Positions 36,465-63,192 of a stretch of DNA of 64,000 bases are shown one piece after another. The first letter of the stretch is position 1. Each line of letters begins with the position of its first letter. A program made the translations under genes and the position numbers. The notes beneath the pieces are model-generated. The model had not been told where the DNA came from. It was given only the letters and a program-made list of their open reading frames with translations, and searched no databases. This DNA is from Opitutales bacterium (lineage in GTDB: Bacteria; Verrucomicrobiota; Verrucomicrobiia; Opitutales; PNEW01): the NCBI GenBank assembly GCA_965197745.1, contig CBDANS010000007.1:1052306-1116305 (forward strand). Reading direction: 5' to 3'.

Positions 36465-36519
36465 GCCTTATTGACAATAATAATACAGGAATATTATAAG
36501 TTATTGATATATTCTTTAA

Positions 36520-41469: not shown

Positions 41470-42066
41470 ATGACACCTGTTTTTGAAAAACTTCAGAAGA
41501 TACTTAAGCAATTACCCGGCCTGGGATACCGCTCGGCGGAACGTGTAGCATTACACCTCACCGTGGAAAAACCGGATTTGCTTCCACAGCTTGTAGATTG
41601 TCTGCAAGAGGCAGCACAAAAAATTAATCGATGCAGCATTTGTGGCAATCTCTGCGAAGATGAGAACTGTGAAATTTGTCTACATCCAAAACGTAACCAC
41701 GCGGAAATTTGCATCGTTGAGCAGGTGCCCGATCTCATTGCCATTGAGCGAAGCGCAGCCTATCGTGGATGCTATCACGTCCTGCATGGAAAACTCTCTC
41801 CTATTCATGATGTCGGACCGGACGATCTCAATTTCCAATCGCTTAAAGAGCGGTTGGACTCCGGAGAGGTAGAGGAAATAATCCTCGCTTTATCCAATGA
41901 TATCGAAGGTGAAGCGACCTGTCACTATATTCAGGAGACGATCATTGGTAATCAACCCCTTAAAGTAACCCGTATCGGATTCGGTTTGCCTAGCGGGGGG
42001 GGCATTGTCTATGCCGATGCTGTAACTTTGAAAAGCGCGCTTGAAGGGCGACGCAGCTATCACTAA
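41470..42066 (+). CDS. recR: Recombination protein RecR
   Basis: LPGLGYRSAERVALHL HhH motif, C4 zinc finger CSICGNLCEDENCEIC, and a Toprim domain. Confidence 0.95.
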   Translation: MTPVFEKLQKILKQLPGLGYRSAERVALHLTVEKPDLLPQLVDCLQEAAQKINRCSICGNLCEDENCEICLHPKRNHAEICIVEQVPDLIAIERSAAYRGCYHVLHGKLSPIHDVGPDDLNFQSLKERLDSGEVEEIILALSNDIEGEATCHYIQETIIGNQPLKVTRIGFGLPSGGGIVYADAVTLKSALEGRRSYH

Positions 42067-42113
42067 ATTATTTATTGTTCATTACCGAGCTGGTCTATTC
42101 AAGAGAAGTACAT

Positions 42114-42187
42114 GCGGACGTAGTATAGAGGTAATACGTGAGCTTCCCAAGCTTGAATCGAGGGTTCGATTCCCTCCGTCCGCACCA
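42114..42187 (+). tRNA. tRNA-Gly (anticodon CCC), CCA encoded
   Basis: Manual cloverleaf: acceptor GCGGACG/CGTCCGC, D stem GTAT/ATAC, anticodon loop TTCCCAA, T arm GAGGG-TTCGATT-CCCTC. Confidence 0.9.
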
Positions 42188-45773: not shown

Positions 45774-45830
45774 GCTAACCATTCTCGAGCTTTGAAGAGC
45801 AATGAGCGCAAGAATGAATTTTTTGATCTT
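45774..45830 (+). repeat. OR copy H (degenerate, no hairpin), attached to the TPR-gene leader
   Basis: CTAACCATTCTCGAGCTTTGAAGAGCAATGAGCGC...TTTTGATC. Confidence 0.55.
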
Positions 45831-46931: not shown

Positions 46932-47000
46932 ACTTCCCTCAGGCTACAACACAGGGCATTATAGGAGACAGACGGAGGGGTTCAATAAACCTCTTACAGT

Positions 47001-47070
47001 TTAATGTTCTCGAGCGCTGAAGAGTGATGAGAGCGTTTTGATGGGCTGGGGTATACCTGGGATACCCCTT
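47001..47070 (+). repeat. OR copy A (reference full copy)
   Basis: TTCTCGAGCGCTGAAGAGTGATGAGAGCGTTTTGATGGGCTGGGGTAT-ACCTGGG-ATACCCCTT. Confidence 0.85.
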
Positions 47071-47564: not shown

Positions 47565-47607
47565 TTCATGTTCTCAAGCCACAGCTAGCGGTGAGAGCGT
47601 TTTGATG
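47565..47607 (+). repeat. OR copy D, truncated after TTTTGATG
   Basis: TTCTCAAGCCACAGCTAGCGGTGAGAGCGTTTTGATG is fused to a gene fragment. Confidence 0.7.
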
Positions 47608-47672
47608 CCACTTTCGCTAATGAGGATGGCATTGACATCAGTGTTACAGTGGAAGAGATGGTGATTGAGTAA
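47604..47672 (+). pseudogene. Last 22 codons of a third member of the shared C-terminal-domain family
   Basis: DATFANEDGIDISVTVEEMVIE*, compared with DATFANEDGDEITVAIDEITIE* (60004..) and DATFVNEDGTVIPVTVDNLTIE* (..4776). Confidence 0.75.
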
Positions 47673-47675
47673 TCC

Positions 47676-47737
47676 TAGCTTTAATTTCCACTGCTTTCAG
47701 GACGCAGAGTTTCCCCTTTACCTATGCGGGTTTCAGG
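47676..47737 (+). repeat. Inverted-repeat arm Y (degenerate tRNA-like part plus conserved 37-nt core)
   Basis: GACGCAGAGTTTCCCCTTTACCTATGCGGGTTTCAGG is the reverse complement of 59393-59428, with 2 mismatches. Confidence 0.8.
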
Positions 47738-47815
47738 GGCAGTTGCCAGAAAACAGAATATTTGGCAACTATTGTGAATTTTCAACTACTCGCGATAGGT
47801 TCTGAGATCAAAATG

Positions 47816-48205
47816 TTAATTTATATTTTTGCTTTGGGAAAGCATTATTTTGATTACTTTCTTAACATCATTCGATGATAGAATGGAATGAAGAGATCTA
47901 ATAAATTCTTCTTCATTTTCGACTTTATATTCTTCATTTGATATTTCGTTAAAAATTTTTAGAGGATAAAGAAAAAGTGGCTGTTCAATACGGAGCACGG
48001 TTACACTATAGTCGTCTAAATTTTGTGCTAAGATATCAAGTCTGATAGTGATTGTATTTGCAGATATGATGGGCCAAACTTGTCCTCTAAGAGTTCCATT
48101 TGTCTGTGTTCCTAAAATTTCTGCTTGCTTTTTGAGTATTGTAAATGGCGGTGTTATGTCATCACCAGTTGGCAGATCACCCCATAAATTTTCATCTTTA
48201 TTCAT
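47816..48205 (-). CDS. Hypothetical protein (129 aa)
   Basis: Clean AT-rich ORF with no recognisable motif. Confidence 0.55.
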   Translation of the reverse strand: MNKDENLWGDLPTGDDITPPFTILKKQAEILGTQTNGTLRGQVWPIISANTITIRLDILAQNLDDYSVTVLRIEQPLFLYPLKIFNEISNEEYKVENEEEFIRSLHSILSSNDVKKVIKIMLSQSKNIN

Positions 48206-48297
48206 GATAGCACCATCCTTTCTATCTCAATTTCAAAATCAAGGGGAAAATGGTCATCGCCAATGTCATAATGCGTATGATCGAGGTCAAACGTAAA

Positions 48298-48484
48298 GGG
48301 TCAGACTGCGAATTCTTTGATTTTATTCAAAGTTCTGTAGGCTTTACTTCTGTTCTTCTGCTCACGCCGAAAGATACTAACATAGAGTTCGTCGTTACTT
48401 TCAATCCTTGGCTTTCGAGCCATTCTCTCGCAATTCCAGTTCTCCCATAGTTTCTTATAAATCAAAGAATTCGCAGTCTGACCC
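48298..48484. repeat. Palindromic mini-element with 25-26 bp perfect terminal inverted repeats; its right tip is split by the IS4 insertion
   Basis: AGGGTCAGACTGCGAATTCTTTGAT (48298-48322) pairs with ATCAAAGAATTCGCAGTCTGACCC(T) (48460-48484, plus T at 50069). It encloses a 40-codon minus-strand ORF, MARKPRIESNDELYVSIF... Confidence 0.7.
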
Positions 48485-50057
48485 GAATGGCGTTAAGATA
48501 AGGGATAGAATGAGTGCAATAGATGCTTGTACAGGGACCGTTGGAGAGCTACCCTAACGAGCATGCAAAAACAAAACTTAACTCGTTATTTTCCAGGATT
48601 TAATCAGGTCCTGTTCGGTCGTGCTCCCCGAACAGCCCTTGCACAGATGGAGGGTAAGCTGGTAGAAATACGGCGGTCAAGTCTTTCCGAGCTATCGGAT
48701 ATCTTCGGGCAGTGGGTGCCGCAAAAGTATTTACACCGGAAGCCTCGAGGGGCTAACAGCCGGCGGAGATTGTTCAGCCAAAACGTGACCTTCTGGGCAT
48801 TTTTGTTCCAAGTGCTCTCACCACGGACTGCCTGCCGGGAAGTGGTGCGCAAGCTCCAGAGCTATTGCAGCATGAAGGGGCTGAAGTTGGCTAAAGGAAC
48901 GGCCTCGGCCTACTGTCAGGCGAGGCAACGGCTGTTGGTGCAAGACCTGCACGGGATCCATGAAGCGATCAGTGAAGAGGTGGCCGGGAGAGTGACCGAC
49001 GATCAACGGTGGAAAGGTCACGAGGTAAAAGTGGTCGACGGCACGGGTATCGCCACCGCCGATACGCCGTGCTTGCAGAGGTGTTACCCACAGCCTTCGC
49101 AGCAACGAAGCGGCTGCGGCTTTCCGGTGGTGAAGCTGGTGGGCTGTTTTTCTTTAGCCAGTGGGGCGCTTTTACACTGGATGGAGTCCTCACTAAGGCA
49201 TCATGACAGTGTGCTGTTGCGGGGCATGATCGGATTTTTTCAAAAGGGTGATGTGGTCCTTGCCGACCGGGGATTTTGCTCTTACCTCAATATTGCCCTG
49301 CTTAAAGGCCGCGGTGCTGAAGCGGTCATGCGTTTGCATCAGCAACGAAGAAGCGACTTTCGTCAGGGCAGGTCCTTGGGTAGGTATGACCGGCTGATCA
49401 TGTGGAAGAAGCCGCAAAATGTCTTCGGCTTCAGTCGCGAGCAGTGGCGGCAAATCCCTGATGAGATCCCCGTACGGCTGGTGAAGATTTTCATTTTCAT
49501 CAAAGGTTTCCGCGCCCATAGCGTAGACCTCGTGACTACCTTGAGCGATCCTCACCAATACTCCCACCACGATCTCGGAGAATTATACTATCGGCGCTGG
49601 GCAGTGGAGCTTTACTTTCGCCACATCAAAACCACCATGGGGATGGAGATCCTGCGCTCTCGCTCGGTCGCTCTCGTGCGCAAAGAGATTGCGATGTTTG
49701 CCATCGCCTACAATCTCTCATCCGCGCTCTTTTGCAGCAAGCTGCCAGTGCCTTCCACCGCGACCTCTCCCGGCTAAGCTTCAAGGGGGCTGTTGACACC
49801 CTCCGCCAATATCAAAGTGCGCTCGCGGCCACCCGGTTTAATCCCAGAGCCCAACGATCTGTCATTGACGAGATGATACACCTCATTGCCCTCGAATCGG
49901 TCCCCCTACGTCCCTTCCGATACGAACCAAGAGTCCTCAAACGTAGACCTATACCTTTCCAACGATTGACTCATCCACGAGCCATGATGACCGTCTCTGC
50001 TTCACGAAAAAACAAAGGCTTTTATCATCCTAAACCACCCTTATCTTAACGCCATTC
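48485..50057 (+). mobile_element. IS4-family insertion sequence (1573 bp) with an 11-bp target duplication
   Basis: Inverted termini GAATGGCGTTAAGATAAGGG. TSD CAGTCTGACCC at 48474-48484 and 50058-50068. Confidence 0.85.
48527..50049 (+). pseudogene. IS4-family DDE transposase with a frameshift near 49730
   Basis: YRRWAVELYFRHIKTTMGME (YREK region) lies in 48527..49777. The C-terminal LSFKGAVDTLRQY lies in 49732..50049. Confidence 0.75.
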
Positions 50058-50080
50058 CAGTCTGACCCTATTTCTTCTGC

Positions 50081-50162
50081 CCAGCCACAGCACAGTGCTG
50101 GTGAGTGCATATCAAGGCGTGAGGACGTTTTGATTGGGAAGGTATACGCCTAGATACCCCTT
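50081..50162 (+). repeat. OR copy F, long variant
   Basis: CCAGCCACAGCACAGTGCTGGTGAGTGC...GACGTTTTGATTGGGAAGGTAT-ACGCCTAG-ATACCCCTT. Confidence 0.75.
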
Positions 50163-50238
50163 GATCTAAAAAAATGCTCAATATATTTTAGTTCTAAGAG
50201 AAGCAAATTAAGATAGATACAGAAGGAGGTGAACGACC

Positions 50239-50637
50239 ATGAGGAAAGAAGAAAATGTAAACATAGTGCGGGAAATTTACGCGAACTTTGGTCGGGGGAA
50301 CATCCCTAGCATACTGAATGTCCTAGCGGATGATATTGTGTTTAAGCAGCCGACAGCAGGTCCATCACCGCTTGCTGGCACTTATCATGGACCTGAGCAA
50401 GTCGGAGAATGGTTTGGCAAGTTGGATGAAGTGGCAGAATCTCAGAACTTCGAGCCTCGAGAGTTCATCGCTCAGGGAAACAAGGTAATCGTCCTAGGTT
50501 ACTACAAGTTTCTGGCAAAACCCACAAATAAAACATGGGAAGCTGAGTGGGTGATGGTATGGACTTTCAAAGAGAGCAAGGTAGTAGGGTTCCAGTTCTT
50601 CGGTGATACTGCTGCTGAAACCGCAGCTTTCTCATGA
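50239..50637 (+). CDS. SnoaL-like/NTF2-fold protein
   Basis: 132 aa. N-terminal NVNIVREIYANFGRGNI and an overall pattern typical of ketosteroid-isomerase-like proteins. GGAGG RBS. Confidence 0.8.
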   Translation: MRKEENVNIVREIYANFGRGNIPSILNVLADDIVFKQPTAGPSPLAGTYHGPEQVGEWFGKLDEVAESQNFEPREFIAQGNKVIVLGYYKFLAKPTNKTWEAEWVMVWTFKESKVVGFQFFGDTAAETAAFS

Positions 50638-50654
50638 AGCTAGTTTCTCCCAGT

Positions 50655-50732
50655 CTTAACTTAGTATTCTCGAGTACTGAAGAGCGATGACGACGTTTTT
50701 ATGAGTGGGGGTATACCTAGGGGATCCCCCTT
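50655..50732 (+). repeat. OR copy B
   Basis: CTTAACTTAGTATTCTCGAGTACTGAAGAGCGATGACGACGTTTTTATGAGTGGGGGTATACCTAGGGGATCCCCCTT. Confidence 0.8.
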
Positions 50733-52065
50733 AAAATCCAAGGACACGAAAAGCTAATCCTGGCCGCATGAGGCTTTCTGGTGGTTTAACCAAGGACAAT
50801 GTATCCAGCAACGCCCGTCGGACTTCTAACCTTTTTTCGGCTTTGGCAAACAGACGTTTAACATACCAATTGATAAAATTCAGTTTCAAAGGTCTTCTGC
50901 CACGGGTCTGTGGATAAGCAAGATCAGACCCAGAAGTCAGTTCCCACGCCCAGTTTGCGCCAACGTTACCCATCTGGCTCCGAAATCTATCTGAAAATCC
51001 ATTCAGGGTGCTGCCTTTTTCGGCGAGAGCTGAGAGACTATTCCACAGGAACACACCCTCTTTAGCAGCCTTTGTCATGCCTTGGCCATAAATTGGATTA
51101 AGTTTACATACTGCATCACCCATGACTAATAATCTATCAGGAAAAGTCTTCAGGCGATCGAAACGTTGTAAGTGGCACGATGGGATCCGGTAGCTTCTGA
51201 ACTCCGAAACTGGTGTGGCATTTTGAAGGAATTCTGAAATATCGGGTGCATCCAATTTTTGAGCGAAAGCTTGGAAACCAGCGTCGTCTGAAGGGGCATT
51301 CTCACCGAAGTATCCCCAAAGAGTTACAATCCATTGATTGTCTTCAACTCTCTCCATTACACCCCCGAGCCATCCCTTAGGCGCATTCGGATTGAGTAAA
51401 AGCAAATTCCAATCAGGTGAAAATTCTGGAGCTTTGAAAAGGCGACTGGTGTAAGAAATGTCAACCTCTACAATTTCTGTTTCAGGTGCATCAAAACCCA
51501 AGCCAAGCAACTCTTTCGGTAGTGTGGATGCACTACCACGAGCATCAACTGTGAGATCGGAGTCGAGTTGAATTTCTTTATCTGGACCCCTGGCAACAAT
51601 GCCCATGACGCTTTTTCCTGATGGATCGGTTATCCACTCTGAGAATCTATAACCCTGCATGAACTCGACATTATTAAGACCTGCTACATATTGCCTAAGG
51701 TAGTATTCGTAAAACGGTCGGGTCGATCCGATAAAAGTTTGGTTGGTTTCTCCTCGTGCCAACCATTTGCCGAAATGTCTCCACTTCAATTCACTTCCTC
51801 CATCAAAGATGTGTGCCCCATTAGAAACCAGTTGCTCAATTACCTCTGGCATTAACTGCTTTAAAGCTTCGTAAGAGGGTGGTAATATTCCGTGAATGTG
51901 ATTCCCTTGTGGCACTCCCTTTCGTGGACTAAAATGTGTCTCCAAGTTGTCCCTCTCGACAACAACAACTCTCTCGAAGAAGTCAGCCAATGCACGAGCC
52001 GCGAAAAGTCCAGCGACACTTGCGCCAACAACTACAGCTTGACTGGAAAGCAAATGTTTAGCCAT
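50731..52065 (-). CDS. FAD-dependent monooxygenase/oxidoreductase
   Basis: VVVGASVAGLFAARAL...VVVVERD dinucleotide-binding motif. 444 aa. Confidence 0.8.
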   Translation of the reverse strand: MAKHLLSSQAVVVGASVAGLFAARALADFFERVVVVERDNLETHFSPRKGVPQGNHIHGILPPSYEALKQLMPEVIEQLVSNGAHIFDGGSELKWRHFGKWLARGETNQTFIGSTRPFYEYYLRQYVAGLNNVEFMQGYRFSEWITDPSGKSVMGIVARGPDKEIQLDSDLTVDARGSASTLPKELLGLGFDAPETEIVEVDISYTSRLFKAPEFSPDWNLLLLNPNAPKGWLGGVMERVEDNQWIVTLWGYFGENAPSDDAGFQAFAQKLDAPDISEFLQNATPVSEFRSYRIPSCHLQRFDRLKTFPDRLLVMGDAVCKLNPIYGQGMTKAAKEGVFLWNSLSALAEKGSTLNGFSDRFRSQMGNVGANWAWELTSGSDLAYPQTRGRRPLKLNFINWYVKRLFAKAEKRLEVRRALLDTLSLVKPPESLMRPGLAFRVLGF

Positions 52066-52093
52066 AACCTAACATACCCCTCTCAAATATAAC

Positions 52094-54112
52094 TTACTCC
52101 TCCAACCCCACCTTCCTCACAAGCTCTATGAAACGGGGATCTGATCGAAGAAAGTCAAATGCTGGCGTTATCTTTAAGAATCTAAGAATAACACCTCGGT
52201 GCTCGTAGACTTGCTCAAGAAACTCCAAGGTTTGTTCCTTTTCGTTTAACTCAGCATATAGCAAAGCGAATGCATAATAGGGTGGAAATCCATGCCTCGC
52301 AATAATAGCTTTTTTCTGCGCTTGCTCGAGTGATTCTAAAGCTTTTTCCTTCTGCCCCATTTTGACATAGAAGTGAGCAAGATAATAATCAGGGTCCTTA
52401 TTTTTCTCGGAGTATATGAAGTTTCTATAGTCTAGACCATTGAATTCAAGAAAACATACACCGATTTTAGGATCAGCCTCGAGTTTGGGTGGAAGAGACA
52501 TTGGGATTCCTGTCCGTTTATACTTGATCACATTTTTACAGAAAAGCCACAACGTTTCCTCATCTATAGAGATAGCCTTCTGCTCAGACCACCGACTGAA
52601 CGCATCGACAGCCTCGTCAATCCTTTCAGCCTTAAGATGTAATACCCCTATATTATTCAAATACCATTGTACTGCCTGGCGTTCCGGGTAAAGCATGATT
52701 GTCTTTTCATACTGCTGAATAGCTGCATCGTCCTGTCCTGCAATTTCAAGCAACATTGCGAGCGCACCATTGTAGGTGTGAGATATAGGATCCAACTCCA
52801 AGGCCTTATTTCCTCCCATCAAAGCCTCATCAAAACGACCCATGCTCGCCAGCATCATCGAATACCAATGGTGTGTGTCCGCATATTCCGGGTTTGAATC
52901 AATGGCCAGCAGAAATTCCTTTTCGGCACCACGCATGTCGTAGCTGTTACGCTTCATAAAACCAAGGAGGGCATGAGCTTCGGCAAGGTTCGGGTCAAGA
53001 GTGAGAGCATTCTCCAATGCTTCTTGGCTTTGTGTGATGTAGTCCTTTCTAAATGCAATTCTTTCAGCTACTGATATGTTTTCTGGAGGACGGTTTTGCG
53101 AAAAGAGAATAGCACTAGCAAGACCAGAGTATGCGAGCGCATAGTTTGGATCCAAGGCAATGGCCTCCTTGAAGTGTTTAATTGCAGTTTTTAAATATTC
53201 CGTTGTCTGCTCATCCGTGACGATTCGTTTGTTCCAAAGATAAAGACCTTGAAGGTAATGGTCGTAAGCTTCGATATTTGTAGTCGAGAGTTTAATTAAA
53301 GGAGCACCTGCTTTACCTATGAGTTTAACATGAAGTGCATTGGCAATTGCCTGTGAGATTTCATCTTGGATGGCGAAGACGCTCTTTAACTCTCGTTCAT
53401 AAGTCTTCGACCAGAGATGAAAGTTATCAGCAGCATTGTTAAGTTGAGCTGTGATCCGGATGGAGTTTCCCTCCTTTCGCACGCTCCCTTCGAGCACGGT
53501 TGTGACGTTGAGTTGCTCGCCAATCGTGGATATGGCCTCATTTCTGAGACGAAACGAAGAGGTTCGAGCAGCTACACGCAACCCTTCGACCTGAGCGAGA
53601 GCGTTCAGGATTTCCTCTGCCATACCCTCGCCGAAGTATTCCTGATCTTTATTCGGGCTCATGTCGCGGAAGGGGAGGACGGCGATGGACTTAATCACAG
53701 ACTCCGGTTCAGGCTCGGGCTCCGGTGCAGGTGCATTTCTCATTATTAAATACCCAATGACAGTTACCGCTAACAGCAATAATGGGATCAGACCGCCCAG
53801 GGCTGTGTTCCGCCATGTGAAAATCTTATGCCGATGAACCTTTTCCTCAGTGCCCCCTGTCGTTGAAGTGTCATCATCACCTGTCTGTTGGGGCTTTACC
53901 CTTTCCTGGACAAAGGCTGTTGCCACAACCATCGGGAAGCCGACAAGGAGCAACACTATTGCCATTGTTGGAGACCACTCAGGTAAACCGAGACTGGTCG
54001 TTAAATGCTGAACGACCTGCAAGACAATCCAACTGCCAACAAGGTAGATTAATATCACCTGCCATAGTGAACGTCGATGAATCTCGTGGATAAGCTTGGT
54101 TAAGCTGGGCAT
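52094..54112 (-). CDS. Membrane-anchored TolB-N-like/TPR repeat protein (intact paralogue)
   Basis: N-terminal TM pair. [25 protein letters not shown]...[19 protein letters not shown]. Multiple TPR units follow. Confidence 0.85.
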   Translation of the reverse strand: MPSLTKLIHEIHRRSLWQVILIYLVGSWIVLQVVQHLTTSLGLPEWSPTMAIVLLLVGFPMVVATAFVQERVKPQQTGDDDTSTTGGTEEKVHRHKIFTWRNTALGGLIPLLLLAVTVIGYLIMRNAPAPEPEPEPESVIKSIAVLPFRDMSPNKDQEYFGEGMAEEILNALAQVEGLRVAARTSSFRLRNEAISTIGEQLNVTTVLEGSVRKEGNSIRITAQLNNAADNFHLWSKTYERELKSVFAIQDEISQAIANALHVKLIGKAGAPLIKLSTTNIEAYDHYLQGLYLWNKRIVTDEQTTEYLKTAIKHFKEAIALDPNYALAYSGLASAILFSQNRPPENISVAERIAFRKDYITQSQEALENALTLDPNLAEAHALLGFMKRNSYDMRGAEKEFLLAIDSNPEYADTHHWYSMMLASMGRFDEALMGGNKALELDPISHTYNGALAMLLEIAGQDDAAIQQYEKTIMLYPERQAVQWYLNNIGVLHLKAERIDEAVDAFSRWSEQKAISIDEETLWLFCKNVIKYKRTGIPMSLPPKLEADPKIGVCFLEFNGLDYRNFIYSEKNKDPDYYLAHFYVKMGQKEKALESLEQAQKKAIIARHGFPPYYAFALLYAELNEKEQTLEFLEQVYEHRGVILRFLKITPAFDFLRSDPRFIELVRKVGLEE

Positions 54113-54227
54113 GGCTATTACAGCAAAGATGATGAATGCTCGTTAGGGAACTGGACCTTCAGCTTGAAGTTTTTGGATAAAACTGTAAAGGATGAAGCAA
54201 TTGACTGTGAGATGGGCTCTTTCTTAT

Positions 54228-54275
54228 ATTAACCATTCTCAAGCTTCAGCAAGAGAGTTTACAGAATTGCTTGAT
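54228..54275 (+). repeat. OR copy I (degenerate), attached to the TPR-gene leader
   Basis: TTAACCATTCTCAAGCTTCAGCAAGAGAG... Confidence 0.45.
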
Positions 54276-54375
54276 CCTATCGCTTCTATGAATAGGATGC
54301 CCAGTTAGCAGATGCGAAGAAGATAACTACAATATTTTAGGCCCCTTTACCCATCTCAACAATCAGGAGATTATA

Positions 54376-54717
54376 ATGATCTTTGAGATACGAAACTATC
54401 ATTTCAATCCAGCTCTTTTTGAATCCTACAAACAATGGGCAAAGAGCGAGGCGACTCCATATTTATTTAGCAAACTCGACATTGTTGGCTTCTGGGTAAA
54501 TACCAGTGACGAACCTGAAGTAAGGGGCCAGCCGCAAGACGATCTCGGATCAGCTAATATCACGTGGATTATCCGATGGAATGATATGGAACATCGGAAT
54601 AGAGTTCTCCCTGATGTTCTTTCAAGCCCTGAATGGCAGACAATTTTCACCAGAGTTCCTGGTGGTAGAGCAAGCTATCTGCGCATAGAGTCCAAATTTG
54701 CAGAGTCTCTTCAGTGA
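54376..54717 (+). CDS. NIPSNAP-family protein
   Basis: MIFEIRNYHFNP...; 113 aa with a dimeric alpha-beta-barrel profile. Confidence 0.75.
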   Translation: MIFEIRNYHFNPALFESYKQWAKSEATPYLFSKLDIVGFWVNTSDEPEVRGQPQDDLGSANITWIIRWNDMEHRNRVLPDVLSSPEWQTIFTRVPGGRASYLRIESKFAESLQ

Positions 54718-54725
54718 CAGCACTT

Positions 54726-54808
54726 CCTAACGTCTTGTGTCAAGCTACAGCGAGCGGTGAGAGCGTTTTGATGGGCTGGGGTATAGCTGAATACCCCTTG
54801 GGCTAACC
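54726..54808 (+). repeat. OR copy C
   Basis: CCTAACGTCTTGTGTCAAGCTACAGCGAGCGGTGAGAGCGTTTTGATGGGCTGGGGTAT-AGCTGA-ATACCCCTTGGGCTAACC. Confidence 0.85.
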
Positions 54809-54858
54809 AGCATTTTAAAATATTGTGGTCCCTACGAGAATAGGTTATTACGGATTGT

Positions 54859-55545
54859 ATGCAATCTAAGGTTGGAGCTGTTTCTGCAATTGCAGGAGCT
54901 ATTATTCTGCTCGTTGGAACTTCCCTACATCCTATGGAGGAAGATCCAAACGATCCAGTTGCCGCATTTACAGAATACGCAGATGACTCACTGTGGGTAG
55001 GCAGTCATTTAACTCAGTTACTAGGCATCGTTTTAATTGTAGCAGCACTTCTTACACTAACCCACCTATTGACTAATGATAAAGGTGGCGGGTGGTCACA
55101 GTTTGGCTCAGCGTTTGCTATTTCTAGTTTGGCCATTGCAGCGGCTCTTCAAGCTGTAGATGGTATTGCGCTAAAGGTGATGGTAGACAATTGGGTGGCT
55201 GCACCAGAATCAGAGAAGATGGCTATTTTTCATGCTACAATTGGCGTCAGGCAAGTTGATGTAGGACTGGCCAGCATGTTCAGTATGTTTATCGGTTTAA
55301 CTGTGGTGCTGTATGGTGTATCTATTGTGATGACCGATCGGTTTCCGAGCTGGCTAGGGTTGATCGCAATCTTTGGTGGCGGTGCGACAGTAACAGCTGG
55401 TGTAATGTATGCGTATACGGGGTTTTCAAAAGTAGCAATGTCTGTAAGCATGCCAGCAAGCTTGTTACTATTGCTTTGGTTGATTGTTCTTGGGGTAAGA
55501 ATGTGGCGAGTAAGTAACAAATGTAATATTACACCCCATTCATAG
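54859..55545 (+). CDS. Integral membrane protein (about 6 TM helices by eye)
   Basis: Hydrophobic repeat pattern. Family not securely recognised. Confidence 0.6.
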   Translation: MQSKVGAVSAIAGAIILLVGTSLHPMEEDPNDPVAAFTEYADDSLWVGSHLTQLLGIVLIVAALLTLTHLLTNDKGGGWSQFGSAFAISSLAIAAALQAVDGIALKVMVDNWVAAPESEKMAIFHATIGVRQVDVGLASMFSMFIGLTVVLYGVSIVMTDRFPSWLGLIAIFGGGATVTAGVMYAYTGFSKVAMSVSMPASLLLLLWLIVLGVRMWRVSNKCNITPHS

Positions 55546-55615
55546 CTTACCATTCTCGAGCGCTGAAGAGTGATGAGAGCGTTTAGTTAGCAGAGGGTAT
55601 AGCTTATTTACCTTC
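55546..55615 (+). repeat. OR copy G (intact 5' half, degenerate hairpin)
   Basis: CTTACCATTCTCGAGCGCTGAAGAGTGATGAGAGCGTTTAGTTAGCAGAGGGTATAGCTTATTTACC. Confidence 0.75.
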
Positions 55616-55745
55616 AGTGACAAAACGCTGTGGTTACTCGCTGTCGCTGTTCAGAGGTAAAATAAATGCTATATCTATGACCCCTTTTAGCCTTTCTTTG
55701 TTCAGGGGTAAAATTGATTCTGCATCTTTGACCCCTTACAACTCC

Positions 55746-55803
55746 TCAACATTGACATCATTATCCGCATACGCGAATATACAGAACTTTAGAACCACTT
55801 GTT
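55746..55803 (+). promoter_or_regulatory. Conserved 58-bp upstream module, copy 1 (TTGACA ... TATACA)
   Basis: About 90% identical to 57793-57850. It ends 18 nt before the 55822 start. Confidence 0.4.
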
Positions 55804-55821
55804 ATCCCACGAGAGCCGACG

Positions 55822-56754
55822 ATGGTTATTGACTGCGAAACACACATATTCCCACGGTGCTTTGATTATCGTCGCTGTCACGTTGAGGACCAGCTCGAGG
55901 ATATGAATCGCTGCGGCGTGGATCGGACCTTCCTCACGTTCTACTGTGACAGTACGCTCACCTCGCCATGCGGGGAGATCACGGATCCCAGTATCAAGCG
56001 GTTCGGTGACAGTGATGCGGAAGTCTGGGACTACTTCAAGGAATCATGGCTCGCGCATCAAGATAGATTCTTCTTCTTCAGTGTTCCCGATCCTCGTGAG
56101 CCGGACTGTATCGAACGACTCGAGGAGCAGTGCGAACTTGGGCTCCACGGCATCGGAGAAACCCAGCCGGCAACGCAGAACATTTTTCCGAATGGTCCCG
56201 AGTTCATGCGTGTATATCGGTTCGCGGCTGACAGAGGATTGCCGGTTGTGCTGACCATGGAACGATGGGAGGAGTGCCTGTGCTTTCGCGGCAGATACTT
56301 CGATGAGTTCTTCGACATGTTTGAGCAAGTGATCCGGGAGTTTGAGGATGTCCGGTTCATGATCGGCCACAGCGGCGATTGCGGCAGTGTCCGTTCAAAG
56401 GATTGGGATACCTACCTGGAAAGCAACCTGCGGTGCTACGAATTGGCTGCAAAGCTGGACAATGTGTGGGTCTGCTCATGCATGCCATGGTGGTTTGCCG
56501 ACAACAAGGTCAATCCTCTCCTGGAACGACAGGTCAGGTTCCTTAGAGACCACGTGGGCTTCTCGAAGGTGACATGGGGCAGTGACTGGCCGTACAACGG
56601 TAGTGGTACGAGCTTCTCCTTCAGGAGTGACTACGGGACGGTGGTCGATTACTACCGTAACCTGCCATTCTGCAGTGAGGAGGAACTGGAGAGCCTCCTT
56701 GGCGGAGCGGCTTATGAGTTTGTCACCGGCCACAAGATCGACTCCGACAGCTAG
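55822..56754 (+). CDS. Amidohydrolase-2 (TIM-barrel metal-dependent hydrolase) family protein
   Basis: VIDCETHIFP N-terminal metal motif, HSGD, and WGSDWPY. Confidence 0.75.
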   Translation: MVIDCETHIFPRCFDYRRCHVEDQLEDMNRCGVDRTFLTFYCDSTLTSPCGEITDPSIKRFGDSDAEVWDYFKESWLAHQDRFFFFSVPDPREPDCIERLEEQCELGLHGIGETQPATQNIFPNGPEFMRVYRFAADRGLPVVLTMERWEECLCFRGRYFDEFFDMFEQVIREFEDVRFMIGHSGDCGSVRSKDWDTYLESNLRCYELAAKLDNVWVCSCMPWWFADNKVNPLLERQVRFLRDHVGFSKVTWGSDWPYNGSGTSFSFRSDYGTVVDYYRNLPFCSEEELESLLGGAAYEFVTGHKIDSDS

Positions 56755-56913
56755 GAAGACCCGCGTGGGTCAACCGATGCATAGTGCACCGGTTGTCCCA
56801 AATTACTAGATCGTCCGGCTGCCATCTGTGTCGGTAGACAAATTGGGGTTGTACTGCTAACGCAGTAAGCTCTCTCAGAATACGCCTGCTCCCCCGATCA
56901 AATTCAAGCGGCC

Positions 56914-57687
56914 TTAACCTTTAGGACTCACCGCTTTCTTCTCCAGTACTGCCTGGTAGCGATCCGTTTTAAATACGGCCTGATTGAGAGTTTCGTTTTT
57001 GCAGGTAACCTCACCCGTTACCCAATGGGTGACGTAGGCGCGACGCCAGCGATCTGAATAATTGCGGTGTGAACTGTGCAGCGTTTGAATTTGATGAAAT
57101 ACAACACCCCCTTTATGGACAGGAGCCAGTCCTTCATTCTTCATTTTAATATCCTCTTCTCTCGGTAAGAAGCTGTGCGGCTCAGCGGCTGATTTTTGGT
57201 AGTGAGGTATAATTCCTACTTTGTGTGACCCACTGATATAGCGCAGGCATCCGTTTTCTTCGTTTACATCGTCGAGCGCGATCCACGCGGTAATAACATG
57301 ATCTGCGGGAAAGCACTGGTAATGAAAGTTATCCTGGTGATAAGGTACGGGGCCTCCGTGATGAGGGGGTTTCAAGAATACCTGATCCTTTAACAACAAT
57401 GGAGTGTCACCTAAGAACTCCTCAATTACACTATTAAAACAGTCGTCTAAAACAAATTCTTGAAATGAAGGATGCTTGAAATATGGATTTGTAATTTTAC
57501 GGGGAATGACCTCCCCGCTTTCCAGTCGTTCCCCGGCTATGGCAGCTACATCGGGGCTTTTTATTTCTTCTTCAATTATCGTCGTCGCTGTCTTCGCTAT
57601 ACCGTCCACAACGGCATGATCAAATACCCCTTCGATCACGACCCATCCTTTTTCCAAATAGTGATCCATCTGTTCTTGAGTAACCAT
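56914..57687 (-). CDS. Phytanoyl-CoA dioxygenase (PhyH) family Fe(II)/2OG oxygenase
   Basis: YHQDNFHY (HxD), ISGSHK, and a distal His. Confidence 0.8.
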   Translation of the reverse strand: MVTQEQMDHYLEKGWVVIEGVFDHAVVDGIAKTATTIIEEEIKSPDVAAIAGERLESGEVIPRKITNPYFKHPSFQEFVLDDCFNSVIEEFLGDTPLLLKDQVFLKPPHHGGPVPYHQDNFHYQCFPADHVITAWIALDDVNEENGCLRYISGSHKVGIIPHYQKSAAEPHSFLPREEDIKMKNEGLAPVHKGGVVFHQIQTLHSSHRNYSDRWRRAYVTHWVTGEVTCKNETLNQAVFKTDRYQAVLEKKAVSPKG

Positions 57688-57792
57688 TTCTGAGCCCTTT
57701 TTCGTTTTATAAAAAATTTATCTTTTAATAGTGAGACTTCAATAATTAAAATCCAGATCGCTTTTATTCTCGGGGAAGGGGAGGAAAAGGGG

Positions 57793-57850
57793 TCAACATT
57801 GACAACATTACCAGCATACGCAAATATACAGAACTTTAGAACCACTTGTT
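57793..57850 (+). promoter_or_regulatory. Conserved 58-bp upstream module, copy 2
   Basis: See 55746-55803. Lies about 138 nt upstream of 57989. Confidence 0.4.
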
Positions 57851-57988
57851 GAGCGAAGGAAGATCAGAGCTAACACACAACAGCAAAAAGGAGGACAGAT
57901 GATGCAAGATTCAAATAGCGTCGTCGAGCCGCCGCACTCCATGGAACAGCCGCTTGCCGGGCCCGATCCCCGAGAGTAAATAACCACC

Positions 57989-59206
57989 ATGAACCTGACT
58001 TTGGAGCAAGGACAATTTTACGACGAAAACTGTTATCTCGTCGTAAAGGGGGCGTTTACGGATGAAGAGTTGGAGCGCCTGGATCGTGGAGTGTACGGGG
58101 CGGTCACATCCGGCAATTGCAGCAGCTGCGGAAAAGTCTATCCGGCGCCAGAGACTTTGTATATTGTTGAAGGACAGTACCAGGACGATCCGGACTTGTT
58201 GTTGATTGGCGAGCATCCGGCCGTTACCGGTCCGGTCGAATCGCTTCTTGGCGGTCACGCCTGTCTATCGGCCTTCGTTTCTTACTTGAAAACGCCCGGA
58301 GCCGTCGGCACCAGTGGCGATTACCAGGGGAGTCACCCCACCGGGCACTGCGACTACAAAACCTACCAGCAGGCGGGTTCGTCGTTCAACTGGCTATTTG
58401 CGATTATTCCGCTCACCGATCTCGATGAAGAGACCGGGTCGCTACTCGTTTCCCCCGGCTCGCACAGGGAGTCGAAGATCGTGCCGGTCACCGACAAGGT
58501 TAGCGAGGTCCATCGCGCGCAGGCGTCCGACATCGCGCCGTTGATCGATGCGGAACTGAAGCGGGGCGACCTTTGCTTTATGCACGAGTTCACCTGGCAC
58601 GAGGGCAAGGGCAACAGTTCCAATCACGACAGGTACGGGATCTACCTCAAGTACCGGGCCGTCAATGCACCGCCGGGATGCGGCCCGCAGTTGTTTCGCG
58701 AGAGAGCTTTCTCGGCGTTCAGCGAGGCGGGCAAGCGATTTGTGCCGCATCACGGGGGCCGGTCTTTTGCGGAGGCGCGGTTGATTATCGATCATGGGGG
58801 AAATTTCCTGCTCGTGGAAGGCGATGCCAGGGATTGGAAACTGCCGGGTGTGGCTCCGCTGGAAAAGCTAGTGAAGGAGTCGGTGACGGCCGATGTAATC
58901 AGGCAGCTGGATATGTTGCTACAGAAGAAATACGGTCTCGAGATCCCGTGGATGACTTACATTGCCGATTATCGCAACGGGGACGGCGTCCGCCGGGTAT
59001 ATGCCTACCAGGACAGCGGAGGGGCAACGGCCGCTCGCACACCCGGGCTGGAGTTCCGGTGGTGCAGCGGTGAGGAAATTCGGGCTCTCGCCGACAGTGG
59101 AAAACTGGAGTCCGAAGACGCGGTTGCGATTCACCGATGGGAAACCGAGGGTTGCGTGCGCGGAGTCGGCGAATCGATGGAGCGCGCGAAGAAGTTCGCT
59201 CAGTAG
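57989..59206 (+). CDS. PhyH-family dioxygenase with an extra C-terminal domain of about 150 aa
   Basis: HCD (HxD) and SPGSHRES motifs. The C-terminal extension is of unknown fold. Confidence 0.75.
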   Translation: MNLTLEQGQFYDENCYLVVKGAFTDEELERLDRGVYGAVTSGNCSSCGKVYPAPETLYIVEGQYQDDPDLLLIGEHPAVTGPVESLLGGHACLSAFVSYLKTPGAVGTSGDYQGSHPTGHCDYKTYQQAGSSFNWLFAIIPLTDLDEETGSLLVSPGSHRESKIVPVTDKVSEVHRAQASDIAPLIDAELKRGDLCFMHEFTWHEGKGNSSNHDRYGIYLKYRAVNAPPGCGPQLFRERAFSAFSEAGKRFVPHHGGRSFAEARLIIDHGGNFLLVEGDARDWKLPGVAPLEKLVKESVTADVIRQLDMLLQKKYGLEIPWMTYIADYRNGDGVRRVYAYQDSGGATAARTPGLEFRWCSGEEIRALADSGKLESEDAVAIHRWETEGCVRGVGESMERAKKFAQ

Positions 59207-59235
59207 CAACAGCCAACGGCGAAATCTATGCTATC

Positions 59236-59393
59236 GGGGGAGGTAGAGGAGATTACCCTCGCCTTATCCAATGATATAGAAGGTGAAGTAACCTGTCACT
59301 ATATCCAGGAGACGATCATTGGTAAACAACCGCTTAAAGTAACCCGTATAGGATTCGGTTTGCCCAGCGGTGGGGGCATTGTCTATGCCGACC
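59236..59393 (+). pseudogene. Diverged duplicate of the recR 3' region (equivalent to about 41862-42018)
   Basis: Encodes EEITLALSNDIEGEVTCHYIQETIIGKQPLKVTRIGFGLPSGGGIVYAD. About 85-90% nucleotide identity to recR. Confidence 0.85.
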
Positions 59394-59428
59394 CGAAACC
59401 CGCATAGGTAAAGGGGAAATTCTGCGTC
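59393..59428 (-). repeat. Inverted-repeat arm X core
   Basis: Reverse complement of 47701-47737. Confidence 0.8.
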
Positions 59429-59466
59429 CCGAACGCAGCGCTTTACCGGGCTGAGCTACACCTCGC
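59422..59466 (-). pseudogene. 5' half of a tRNA-Pro(CGG)-like gene (acceptor 5' strand, D arm, anticodon arm) without T arm
   Basis: GCGAGGT-GT-AGCTCAGCCCGGTAAAGC-G-CTGCG-TTCGGGA-CGCAG. The downstream sequence is not tRNA-like. Confidence 0.5.
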
Positions 59467-59631
59467 TTAATACAGGGTAATACTTATATTACTTTTTAAA
59501 GTGTCAACGAAAGTAAATATTTACGGGGTGCTCGTATAATTCATTGATTGCCATTTACCATAGCGACCATGATCAGCCTTCGTCCCGCGGTAGTTTGACT
59601 AATGTAAGGCAGGGTATAGATTTATCCCTAT

Positions 59632-59768
59632 GTCATTGCGAGGATCCCGCAGCTGCGGGAGACGCGGCTACCGATGGCAAAGTCCGACATCTTCCATTCC
59701 AGGCGAATGAATGTACGCAACCGACATCCCCCTGGATCGCCACGGCTGACAAGCAGCCTCGCGATGAC
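59632..59768. repeat. 137-bp element with 12-nt terminal inverted repeats and an internal 16-nt palindrome
   Basis: GTCATTGCGAGG ... CCTCGCGATGAC (one G-T position). Internal TCCCGCAGCTGCGGGA. Confidence 0.6.
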
Positions 59769-60003
59769 AAATAGGATGCAAACTAGATCTGCTTTAATTT
59801 CGCTACAGTAGGACTACGGCTGTCAGGTAGTCTGCTCCACCTAATGTTAATTAATAATGTAAAGAGGTGGAACGCGGTGTCCCTACCGCGTTATATATTT
59901 AAATTGTAGTGATAAAATAAGTGTGCTGGGACAGCCCGCTCCACCTCACTTAATTGCGTAACACTTTAAACTTAATACTTAAAACTGATCGATAGATCAC
60001 ACA

Positions 60004-62970: not shown

Positions 62971-63073
62971 CGACGACCTGCAGAACTACCCAACTGCCAA
63001 TAAGGTAGATTACTATCACCTGCCAATGTGAACGTCGATGGATCTCGTGGATAAGCTGGGTTAATCTGGGCAT
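62971..63073 (-). pseudogene. 5' stub (about 34 codons) of a third TolB-like/TPR paralogue with its leader
   Basis: Encodes [34 protein letters not shown]. The upstream 120 nt matches the leaders at 45659 and 54113. Confidence 0.75.
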
Positions 63074-63192
63074 GGTAAATGCAGCAAAAGATGGCGAATG
63101 CTTGGGAGGAACCAGGTCGTTAGGCTGAAACCATTAGCTTAAACTGTAAAGGATGAAGCAATCGACTGAGTAAGGGGGGCATTTTGACCCAA

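What the first reader, a model, noticed from the sequence alone, without database searches (positions are those of the whole stretch)
47676..59466. tRNA-Pro-like inverted repeats flank an 11.7-kb segment, mirrored by secreted-protein gene ends
Seen:
- A 37-nt core, GACGCAGAGTTTCCCCTTTACCTATGCGGGTTTCAGG (47701-47737), recurs inverted at 59393-59428.
- Outside each core lies tRNA-like sequence. The right copy (59422-59466, minus strand) folds as the 5' half of a tRNA-Pro(CGG) up to the anticodon arm and has no T arm. The left copy is more degraded.
- Beyond each arm lies the 3' end of a member of the shared-C-terminal-domain family, pointing toward the arm (47604-47672 on +, 60004.. on -).

Inference: this is an inverted duplication, or the product of a large inversion between copies of a tRNA-associated junction. 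The junction may be an old integration site in tRNA-Pro. A functional long-range invertible segment is less likely.
Basis: partly seen in the sequence, partly recalled or inferred. Interest (0 to 1): 0.5.

Follow-up and report, generated by a model that had tools for sequence, protein, structure and literature searches.

The report
Two facing truncated tRNA-Pro pseudogene copies
The two "inverted repeat" arms are old, decayed copies of the front half of a proline-tRNA gene. Each copy was carried along at the tail of a duplicated secreted-protein gene, so this is a scar of genome rearrangement in a very unstable region, not a DNA switch or a mobile element.

Summary
A 47-nt inverted repeat (47691-47737 / 59392-59438, 43 of 47 positions matching) occurs only twice in the window. 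ARAGORN and Rfam call neither arm a tRNA.

Relatives (Opitutales, Verrucomicrobiota) explain it. Two of them carry an intact tRNA-Pro(CGG). Its promoter and first ~45 nt match the right arm and the sequence upstream of it. After the variable loop, every pseudo-copy switches at the same point to the same ~30-nt non-tRNA "core".

This module runs: family-gene 3' domain, spacer, tRNA promoter, tRNA 5' half, core. One relative has four direct copies upstream of its intact tRNA-Pro. Two others have one copy each.

In this window a complete unit (right, minus strand) faces a deleted unit (left). The 11.7 kb between them is a patchwork:
- an IS4 element, which a sister strain lacks;
- a MITE-like element;
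- unrelated genes;
- a 158-nt recR fragment of foreign origin, lying directly against the right core.

The segment holds no recombinase apart from the IS4 transposase. No alternative orientation turned up in three contigs, and I found no RNA covariation.

Verdict: paralogous tRNA-Pro pseudogene relics, ordinary in kind and low in interest. One point remains unexplained: the core plus 129-aa ORF module diverges unusually slowly and evenly.

The parts
47574..47607 (+). Truncated copy of a ~75-nt intergenic repeat (the 'D-type' repeat), fused at ...GTTTTGATG| to the family-gene remnant. It marks the deletion that removed almost all of gene A.
   Evidence: Repeat families D2/D4/D6; pattern search; alignment. 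The same fusion is present in L001, L002 and L007.
47607..47675 (+). Remnant 'A': the last 22 codons plus stop (ATFANEDGIDISVTVEEMVIE*) of a secreted-protein family gene, pointing toward the left arm.
   Evidence: The positional counterpart in L006 is a full-length 768-aa gene.
47676..47709 (+). Left tRNA-Pro pseudogene remnant: traces of the D arm and a degraded anticodon arm (CTGCTTTCAGGACGCAG). The spacer, the promoter and tRNA nt 1-~8 are deleted relative to L001.
   Evidence: Alignments; L001 sequence.
47710..47739 (+). Left 'core' C: the ~30-nt non-tRNA sequence that replaces the tRNA from the variable loop onward (TTTCCCCTTTACCTATGCGGGTTTCAGGGG).
47740..48283 (-). Inner flank of the left arm: a hairpin (about 47741-47772) and the convergent 129-aa ORF 'I' (47816-48205, minus strand) with its upstream region. 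It travels with the core in every relative.
   Evidence: No family hit for the ORF in Pfam, PHROGs, PADLOC or NCBIfam.
48298..50066 (+). MITE-like element (48298-48484, perfect 26-nt terminal inverted repeats) plus an IS4-family insertion sequence (48476-50066, 29-nt terminal inverted repeats, DDE transposase 48527-49777). The sister strain L003 lacks the IS.
   Evidence: I2, I3; PF01609; L003 joins 48484 to 50054.
59234..59391 (+). 158-nt internal fragment of a recR gene (Toprim region). It is cut at both ends and lies directly against the right core. It is not a decaying local copy of the resident recR.
   Evidence: 90.5% identity to 41860-42017, 12 synonymous against 3 nonsynonymous differences, dN/dS 0.06. 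Relative L011 is collinear only up to 59233.
59392..59421 (-). Right 'core' C, identical to the left core over 25 nt.
59422..59466 (-). Right tRNA-Pro(CGG) pseudogene: acceptor 5' strand, D arm and anticodon arm (nt 1-45). 3 mismatches to the intact gene of relatives. No T arm and no 3' acceptor strand.
   Evidence: No tRNA called. The tRNA 3' half is absent from the whole window.
59467..59585 (-). 'U': the upstream/promoter region of tRNA-Pro(CGG). TTGACACTTTAAAAAGTAATATAAG is identical to the sequence upstream of the intact tRNA-Pro in L008.
59586..60003 (-). Spacer between family gene S and U. It begins with the family-typical GTGATCTATCGATCA/TTAAGT motif, contains a palindromic hairpin (59871-59892) and holds an inserted repeat 'Z' (59663-59740).
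60004..61980 (-). 'S': an intact 658-aa secreted-protein family gene whose 3' end points toward the right arm.
41470..42187 (+). Resident intact recR (41470-42066) followed by tRNA-Gly(CCC) (42114-42187), the only tRNA called in the window. Included for comparison with the recR fragment at the right arm.

Best explanation
The two arms are the ends of two old paralogous copies of one composite module. The module runs: conserved 3' domain of a secreted-protein family gene, spacer, promoter of tRNA-Pro(CGG), nt 1-~47 of that tRNA, then a fixed ~30-nt non-tRNA 'core'.

The tRNA|core joint arose once, by an illegitimate join inside the variable loop of a tRNA-Pro(CGG) gene copy. The simplest origin is the novel joint of a segmental or tandem duplication that ended inside the tRNA gene; this step is inferred. 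The joint was then copied along with the neighbouring family genes.

In this genome a complete unit (right, minus strand) and a unit that has lost most of its gene, its spacer, its promoter and the first nucleotides of the tRNA (left, plus strand) lie convergently. Their shared 47 nt therefore read as an inverted repeat around 11.7 kb.

That 11.7 kb is not a discrete element. It is a hypervariable patch (IS4, MITE-like element, unrelated small metabolic genes, a foreign recR fragment) whose content differs between close relatives. The arms do nothing today beyond offering 25 nt of perfect homology. They are scars, not a switch, a transposon end or an att site.
For: 1. Identity of the tRNA part.
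- Intact tRNA-Pro(CGG) genes in L006 (2251-2175) and L008 (8911-8835) match the right arm through nt 45 with 3 mismatches.
- Their upstream regions match region U. TTGACACTTTAAAAAGTAATATAAG is identical in L008.

2. A single shared joint.
- All 8 distinct pseudo-copies change from tRNA to core at the same place. These are window left and right, L001, L002, L007 and L006 c1-c4.
- Copy c1 keeps AGAGGT|TCC, which puts the joint in the variable loop.

3. The module travels with the family genes.
- L006 has four direct copies on the strand of, and upstream of, the intact tRNA-Pro. Copies c3 and c4 follow family genes; c1 and c2 follow I-ORF copies.
- The spacer motif after the stop codon is shared by window S, L001 A and the L006 768-aa gene.

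4. The left arm is a deleted version. L001 has A, spacer, U, T, C, I at the orthologous place. Window-left, L002 and L007 lack about 290 nt of it.

5. The copies are old paralogs. L001 U-T-C against the right copy is 80-81% identical, while the orthologous flanks are 94-97% identical.

6. The segment between the arms is not a unit.
- L002 joins I directly to the PhyH-257 gene and lacks 48284-56905.
- L001 has sulfatase genes instead.
- Sister strain L003 lacks the IS4.

7. The right inner boundary is an illegitimate junction.
- The recR fragment 59234-59391 has dN/dS 0.06 against the resident recR.
- L011 homology stops at 59233.

8. No machinery and no alternative state.
- The only recombinase-like gene in the segment is the IS4 transposase.
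- Three contigs from two assemblies show the same orientation.

9. No RNA signal. There are 0 compensatory pairs in 22 predicted pairs, and the fold z-scores are unremarkable.
Against: - The claim that the joint is the end of a segmental duplication is inference. No genome with the pre-duplication state was found.
- The core-hairpin-I module is 89% identical between the window and L006, with pN/pS about 1. Neighbouring coding genes show dS 0.9-1.95, and the adjacent A gene end is about 71% identical by my own count on the sequences. Simple vertical decay does not predict this pattern. It may instead reflect recent exchange or nucleotide-level constraint. The calibration genes could be paralogs, so this is not conclusive.
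- Within the arms the core is 25/25 identical while the tRNA part has 3 mismatches in 19 positions. Some recent copying between the arms, by conversion or template switching, is therefore possible.
- L006 is a short-read scaffold with an N gap next to copy c2, so its copy number is not fully secure.
- I could not scan the rest of this genome for an intact tRNA-Pro(CGG).
Confidence: 0.7

Rival explanations
1. The arms are att-site remnants of serial site-specific integration into tRNA-Pro(CGG). On this view small modules (core, hairpin, 129-aa ORF, sometimes a family gene) carry their own tRNA promoter and 5' half. They integrate by crossover in the 5' part of the gene, the mirror image of classical 3'-end integration. 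Each event leaves a truncated promoter+5'-half|core copy upstream and rebuilds the intact gene downstream.
For: - L006 has an array of direct pseudo-copies upstream of, and on the same strand as, the intact tRNA-Pro.
- The joint is identical in all copies.
- The core-I module has anomalously low, codon-position-independent divergence (pN/pS about 1, dS 0.14, against 0.9-1.95 in neighbouring genes). There is also a sharp drop in identity at the boundary with the family gene end (sequences).
- tRNA-Pro(CGG) is a known phage target (phage 16-3 of Sinorhizobium; my own knowledge).
Against: - No integrase or other site-specific recombinase in the window region or in L001, L002, L006 or L007.
- The 129-aa ORF matches nothing in Pfam, PHROGs, PADLOC or NCBIfam.
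- The module has no defined far end. Homology stops at three slightly different points upstream of the ORF in different genomes.
- There are no convincing terminal repeats. The best is 17/23, which is within chance.
- Homologous unequal crossing-over produces the same array without any integrase.
Confidence: 0.1
2. One reading: a recent inverted duplication, or a large inversion by recombination between the two arms. On this view the 11.7 kb has been, or can still be, flipped as a block.
For: - The inverted repeat is real and far beyond chance.
- The 25-nt perfect core is about the minimum length for RecA-dependent exchange (my own knowledge).
- Family gene ends are mirrored.
- The PhyH-257 gene is inverted relative to the tRNA/S side when compared with L006 and L008.
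Against: - Similarity ends abruptly at both edges of the 47 nt. The inner flanks are unrelated: hairpin and I ORF on the left, recR fragment on the right.
- The orthologous left locus in L001 is only about 80% identical to the right copy.
- A and S are already convergent in L001, which has only one copy.
- No relative and no second assembly shows the flipped state.
- recR is intact elsewhere, so the right junction is not one half of a reciprocal inversion.
Confidence: 0.1
3. The module is a functional small-RNA gene. The intact tRNA promoter drives a tRNA-5'-half-plus-core RNA that ends at the hairpin. The repeat then reflects two copies of that gene.
For: - The promoter of the right copy is identical over 25 nt to that of a genuine tRNA-Pro.
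- The core is conserved, with 0-3 changes in 25 nt across 8 copies.
- The hairpin is kept, with some G-U-compatible changes on this strand.
Against: - No compensatory change in any of 22 predicted pairs.
- Fold energies are not better than shuffles (z = +0.64 and -1.61).
- Four of the eight copies (window-left, L002, L007 and L006 c3) lack the promoter and the tRNA 5' end; L006 c4 lacks the promoter only.
- The right copy lacks the hairpin and runs into antisense recR.
- The tRNA part decays freely in L001, L002 and L007.
- No Rfam match at E<=10.
Confidence: 0.05

Closest known systems
Partial tRNA gene copies at the borders of genomic islands and prophages (att sites of tyrosine integrases, e.g. 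P4-like islands; phage 16-3 in tRNA-Pro(CGG) of Sinorhizobium meliloti). Cited from my own knowledge; the topic is covered in PMC11476347 and PMC4891358, which were listed but not read.
   Same: tRNA-derived fragments sit next to variable, horizontally influenced DNA. Several fragments can accumulate near one intact tRNA gene.
   Different: - Here the fragment is the promoter plus the 5' half, not the 3' part.
- The break is in the variable loop.
- The copies lie upstream of the intact gene.
- No integrase is present.
- The fragments are tied to a paralogous gene family rather than to island ends.
Novel joints of tandem or segmental duplications, and the truncated (pseudo)genes they leave behind
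   Same: One unique illegitimate joint (tRNA nt ~47 | core) is shared by all copies. The copies are direct and tandem in L006 and have been co-amplified with neighbouring genes. The tRNA part decays where no intact template is nearby.
   Different: The pre-duplication arrangement has not been seen. In this genome two copies are convergent, which needs at least one further rearrangement.
Invertible DNA segments (Hin/Gin/Cin systems, shufflons, Bacteroides invertons)
   Same: Inverted repeats flank a DNA segment.
   Different: - No serine or tyrosine invertase inside or beside the segment.
- The arms lie 11.7 kb apart and differ at 4 of 47 positions.
- The segment contents differ between strains.
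- No second orientation was observed.
Composite transposons and insertion sequences with terminal inverted repeats
   Same: Inverted terminal sequences lie around a block that contains a transposase gene.
   Different: - The IS4 inside has its own 29-nt inverted repeats and is absent from the sister strain.
- The arms carry no flanking target duplication.
- The arms are tRNA-derived.
- They occur as direct repeats in a relative.
Flexible (hypervariable) genomic islands of marine bacteria, often next to tRNA genes (my own knowledge)
   Same: Closely related genomes (shared DNA 95-98% identical) carry different gene sets between the same conserved flanks, with IS elements and gene fragments.
   Different: This describes the setting rather than the repeat itself.

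Membership tests
Functional tRNA-Pro(CGG) gene | A complete cloverleaf (acceptor, D, anticodon and T arms) detected by tRNA finders | tested here: not met
   ARAGORN and Rfam (gathering threshold and E<=10) call nothing at either arm. The T arm and 3' acceptor strand are absent from the whole window. The intact genes of L006 and L008 are detected by the same tool.
tRNA-Pro(CGG) pseudogene (derived from the gene) | Sequence homology to the genuine gene and to its upstream region in relatives | tested here: met
   The right arm matches 42 of 45 nt of the gene, and about 120 nt of upstream region aligns, including an identical 25-nt promoter stretch.
Integrase att site in a tRNA gene (island or prophage border) | A tyrosine or serine integrase gene next to one border | tested here: not met
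   No integrase among the ORFs of 44-64 kb, nor in L001, L002, L006 or L007. Only IS3 and IS4 transposases are present.
Integrase att site in a tRNA gene (island or prophage border) | The duplicated segment is the 3' part of the tRNA and forms direct repeats at both island ends | tested here: not met
   The retained part is the promoter plus the 5' half. The 3' half is not duplicated anywhere. The copies in this window are inverted.
Site-specific invertible segment | A recombinase (invertase) gene within or beside the segment | tested here: not met
   Pfam scan of the ORFs in the segment, and precomputed Pfam hits in L004/L005, show IS4 DDE transposase, SnoaL, FAD-binding, TPR, NIPSNAP, DUF4386, amidohydrolase and PhyH x2.
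Site-specific invertible segment | Both orientations present in a population or among strains | tested here: inconclusive
   Three contigs from two ENA assemblies show one orientation. Raw reads could not be inspected.
Transposon / IS terminal inverted repeats | Arms at the exact ends of a unit that is present or absent as a block, with target-site duplication | tested here: not met
   Relatives differ by pieces of the interior, not by the whole block. The arms are direct repeats in L006. The sequences just outside the arms show no direct repeat.
Structured non-coding RNA family | A conserved secondary structure supported by compensatory changes, or an Rfam match | tested here: not met
   0 of 22 predicted pairs show a double change. 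z-scores are +0.64 and -1.61. No Rfam hit.

The most novel reading that the evidence does not exclude
The roughly 0.6-0.75-kb module (tRNA-Pro promoter and 5' half, core, hairpin, 129-aa ORF) could be a discrete unit that is exchanged horizontally. It would recombine at the 5' part of tRNA-Pro(CGG), the mirror image of classical 3'-end integration, and so help duplicate and shuffle the neighbouring secreted-protein genes.

The hints are:
- a direct array upstream of the intact tRNA-Pro in L006;
- the identical joint in all copies;
- the module's low, codon-position-independent divergence (about 0.13, against dS 0.9-1.95 in neighbours; pN/pS about 1).
Probability: 0.08. Interest if true: 0.6.

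Novelty: new member of a known kind. Interest (0 to 1): 0.2.

Why it matters
Mostly as a caution. A long-range inverted repeat with tRNA-like sequence looks like a switch or an integration site, but here it is a by-product of duplicated gene tails in a recombination-prone region.

It also records two things about these marine Opitutales. First, the tRNA-Pro(CGG) locus is a growth zone for a family of secreted proteins with a highly conserved ~290-aa C-terminal domain. Second, in this lineage the locus that resembles the genuine tRNA-Pro locus of relatives L006/L008 (family gene and spacer upstream of the tRNA promoter) carries only a truncated gene. The genome may therefore have lost tRNA-Pro(CGG), or may keep it elsewhere.

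Tried and rejected
- Search for the missing tRNA 3' half. I used generic T-loop patterns and then the lineage's own sequence GGTTCAAGTCC / GGTCGCTGGTTCAAGTCCAGTCACCCCGACCA. There is nothing in the window, or in any locus other than the two intact genes. This rules out a split or intron-containing tRNA.
- Rfam at permissive thresholds over 44-64 kb gave only chance-level snoRNA-type hits.
- The core in viral contigs: 0 hits. The core in 185,579 species-representative genomes: only 2 hits, one per genome. It is therefore not a generic genome-wide repeat.
- Consensus folding of 7 copies and single-sequence folds gave no covariation and no unusual stability.
- Terminal inverted or direct repeats bounding the core-I module. 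The best candidate is 17/23 with a 9-nt seed, it is not conserved in L006, and it is within chance.
- Family searches for the 129-aa ORF and gene S in Pfam, PHROGs, PADLOC and NCBIfam found nothing.
- A simple reciprocal inversion model between a left pseudo-copy and a genuine right tRNA predicts I next to the right arm and an intact tRNA on the left. Neither is seen (reasoning).
- A local duplicate of recR decaying in place is rejected by 12 synonymous against 3 nonsynonymous differences (binomial P about 0.001 under that model).
- Two literature searches for precedents returned general tRNA-integration papers only. I read none in depth.

Full report

Yes. The repeat finder reports one long-range inverted pair, 47691-47737 and 59392-59438. 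It is 47 nt long, 91% complementary, with 11,654 nt between the arms. The mismatches are at positions 5, 9, 19 and 45, so the longest perfect run is 25 nt, TTTCCCCTTTACCTATGCGGGTTTC. That 25-mer, allowing 3 mismatches, occurs exactly twice in 64 kb, against 0 expected.

Read on the minus strand, the right copy is preceded by CGAGGTG-TA-GCTC-AGCCCGGTA-AAGC-G-CTGCG-TTCGGGA-CGCAG. This is the acceptor 5' strand, D arm and anticodon arm with anticodon CGG. It then continues with non-tRNA sequence. ARAGORN finds only tRNA-Gly(CCC) at 42114-42187. Rfam finds no tRNA at either arm, even at E<=10.

The left copy retains the anticodon arm in degraded form. The last 22 codons of a family gene (47607-47675, +) mirror the 3' end of the 658-aa gene at 60004-61980 (-).

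**2. Where the sequence comes from**

An exact scan of species-representative genomes with a 21-mer of the core hit two Opitutales (Verrucomicrobiota) MAGs, one copy each: L001 and L002. Look-ups of window proteins retrieved the following:
- a contig 99.98% identical to the window (L005/L010, ENA ERZ25072076);
- a sister strain (L003/L004/L009, ERZ25072670) that is 99.9% identical and has both arms in the same orientation but lacks the IS4;
- via homologs of the 129-aa ORF, two further relatives, L006 and L007.

One metagenome scan with a promoter-plus-D-arm pattern gave L008.

**3. What the arms are**

L006 and L008 each carry an intact tRNA-Pro(CGG). The gene is CGGGGTGTAGCTCAGCCTGGTAGAGCGCTGCGTTCGGGACGCAGAGGTCGCTGGTTCAAGTCCAGTCACCCCGACCA. 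The right arm matches its first 45 nt with 3 mismatches.

The roughly 120 nt upstream of the right arm (region U, 59467-59585) aligns with the region upstream of the genuine genes. TTGACACTTTAAAAAGTAATATAAG is identical in L008. So U plus T is the promoter and 5' half of a tRNA-Pro(CGG) gene.

In every pseudo-copy the sequence leaves the tRNA at the same place, inside the variable loop. Copy L006 c1 still reads AGAGGT|TCC. All copies continue with the same ~30-nt core. One shared illegitimate joint implies one founding event.

**4. The module and its gene family**

In L006 the intact tRNA-Pro follows a 569-aa family gene ending ...ATFTNEDGNDITVTTE*. Upstream of it, on the same strand, are four pseudo-copies (c1-c4). 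Copies c3 and c4 follow family genes; c2 and c3 are each followed by a copy of the 129-aa ORF region.

The spacer after the family gene's stop codon (GTGATCTATCGATCA, then TTAAGT-type repeats) is shared by window gene S, L001 remnant A and the L006 768-aa gene. The repeated unit is therefore: family-gene 3' domain, spacer, U, T, core.

The family's C-terminal ~290 aa is under strong purifying selection (dN about 0.05, dS about 0.9 between S and the L006 paralogs).

In the window the right unit is complete: S, a spacer with an inserted repeat Z, then U, T and the core.

At the left, L001 still has A-remnant, spacer, U, T, core, hairpin and I. Window-left, L002 and L007 have lost about 290 nt, from just after the stop codon to about tRNA nt 8. 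Gene A itself had already been cut down to 69 nt by a deletion that fused it to an intergenic repeat. That fusion is shared by L001, L002, L007 and the window.

**5. Are the arms a recent inverted duplication or a flip-flop?**

No, for these reasons:
- L001's U-T-core, at the position orthologous to the left arm, is 80-81% identical to the right copy. The flanks are 94-97% identical.
- A and S are already convergent in L001, which has a single copy.
- The inner flanks of the two arms are unrelated.
- The interior differs piecewise among close relatives. L002 joins the I region to the PhyH-257 gene, so 48284-56905 is absent. L001 has sulfatase genes. The sister strain lacks only the IS4.
- No invertase is present.
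- All three contigs of this species have the same orientation.

**6. The right inner junction**

Directly inside the right core lies a 158-nt piece of recR (59234-59391, + strand; Toprim_4 hit). Its reading frame runs ...GGGIVYAD and then into the core. An intact recR sits at 41470-42066, next to tRNA-Gly.

The fragment is 90.5% identical to the resident recR, with 12 synonymous and 3 nonsynonymous differences (dN/dS 0.06, dS 0.43). A local copy decaying in place would give about 62% nonsynonymous changes (P about 0.001). The piece therefore spent most of its divergence time inside a functional recR of another lineage, and it is imported DNA.

A 94%-identical ortholog of the PhyH-405 gene (L011) is collinear with the window only up to 59233. 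After that point it continues into an intergenic repeat instead. The right arm is thus bounded by two illegitimate junctions.

**7. Function**

RNAalifold on seven copies predicts the anticodon hairpin, a weak core hairpin and the downstream hairpin. None of the 22 predicted pairs shows a compensatory change. Single-sequence folds are no more stable than shuffles. Four of the eight copies (window-left, L002, L007 and L006 c3) lack the promoter and the tRNA 5' end; L006 c4 lacks the promoter only. I infer that the arms have no present function. The right copy's promoter looks intact and may still fire, but this is untested.

**8. What remains odd**

The core-hairpin-I module is 89% identical between the window and L006, and 95-98% identical to closer relatives. 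Divergence is equal at synonymous and nonsynonymous sites of the 129-aa ORF (pN/pS 0.97). The neighbouring genes show dS 0.9-1.95 against L006 and 0.09 against L002. The adjacent A gene end is only about 71% identical to its L006 counterpart, by my own count on the sequences.

Three explanations are possible: the module has been exchanged recently between lineages; it is constrained at the nucleotide level; or my calibration genes are paralogs. I could not decide between these. This keeps a small probability on a mobile-module reading.

**9. Comparison with known systems, and verdict**

The closest known things are tRNA-fragment att scars at island borders and the truncated genes left at duplication joints. 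The membership tests for a functional tRNA, an integrase att site, an invertible segment, transposon ends and a structured RNA all fail on at least one defining feature tested here.

The finding is a genuine sequence feature of an ordinary kind: paralogous tRNA-Pro(CGG) pseudogene relics in a hypervariable, IS-rich region. Its interest is low.

Noticed in passing
window 42461-42532, 45769-45809, 46994-47068, 47574-47607, 50654-50728, 54731-54798, 55540-55614; also L011 2609-2665 and 3560-3620: A ~75-nt repeat, TTCTCGAGCGCTGAAGAGYGATGAGAGCGTTTTGATGGGCTGGGGTATACCnnGGATACCCC, ending in a GC-rich hairpin. All copies are on the + strand and most lie directly after the stop codons of small genes (CorA, SnoaL, NIPSNAP, DUF4386). 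Copies sit at two of the rearrangement breakpoints: the truncation of gene A, and downstream of PhyH-405 in L011. There is no Rfam hit. The layout is reminiscent of REP elements or cassette-boundary sites, but I did not assign it.
   Followed up: partly
window 59234-59391 vs 41860-42017: The recR fragment next to the right arm differs from the resident recR almost only at synonymous sites (dN/dS 0.06, dS 0.43). It was therefore imported from a diverged functional recR rather than copied locally.
   Followed up: yes
window 47816-48205 (-) and the core/hairpin downstream of it; L006 9049-9438: The 129-aa ORF has homologs in only two other protein clusters out of 5.8 billion. It is kept open at 129 codons in four genomes, yet it evolves with pN/pS about 1 and 4-7 times more slowly than the synonymous sites of neighbouring genes.
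   Followed up: partly
window 48298-48484 and 48476-50066: An IS4-family element with 29-nt terminal inverted repeats is inserted at the end of a 187-nt MITE-like element that has perfect 26-nt inverted repeats and the same GGGTCAGAC terminus. The IS is missing from the 99.9%-identical sister strain, so the insertion is very recent.
   Followed up: partly
window 42549-43556, 43657-44975, 44966-45658; related copy 52094-54112; fragment 62973-63177: A TPR-protein paralog next to tRNA-Gly is split by an IS3-family element. An intact paralog lies inside the 11.7-kb segment, and a third 5'-end fragment lies at about 63.0 kb. Further IS3-like copies are at 8299-9727 and 14080-15109.
   Followed up: no
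window 2392-4776 (+), 60004-61980 (-), 47607-47675; L006 genes of 569, 741, 768 and 593 aa: A secreted-protein family with variable N-terminal parts and a ~290-aa C-terminal domain that is very conserved at the protein level (89-93% aa identity with dS about 0.9-1.0) and ends ...ATFANEDGxxIxVxxExxxIE*. There is no Pfam or NCBIfam model for the domain. The third member in the window (2392-4776) has no tRNA-like tail.
   Followed up: partly
window 59663-59740; L001 2876-2917 and 7087-7159; L002 1194-1239: A short repeat 'Z' (contains CGCAATGACA / TGTCATTGCG) occurs in both orientations in relatives. It is inserted between gene S and the tRNA promoter in the window.
   Followed up: no
window 11258-14071 vs 33797-36513; 25077-25376 vs 27051-27350; 16939-17102 vs 25521-25684: Further large direct repeats elsewhere in the window: two ~2.8-kb copies at 85-90% identity (probably another IS), a 300-nt pair at 98% flanking the gene at 25713-26966, and a 164-nt pair at 96%.
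   Followed up: no
L006 about 8080-8280: A scaffold gap (run of N) flanked by a tandem 18-nt repeat, AGGCGGCGTTACATCAAC, lies next to pseudo-copy c2. The exact copy number of the L006 array should therefore be treated with caution.
   Followed up: no
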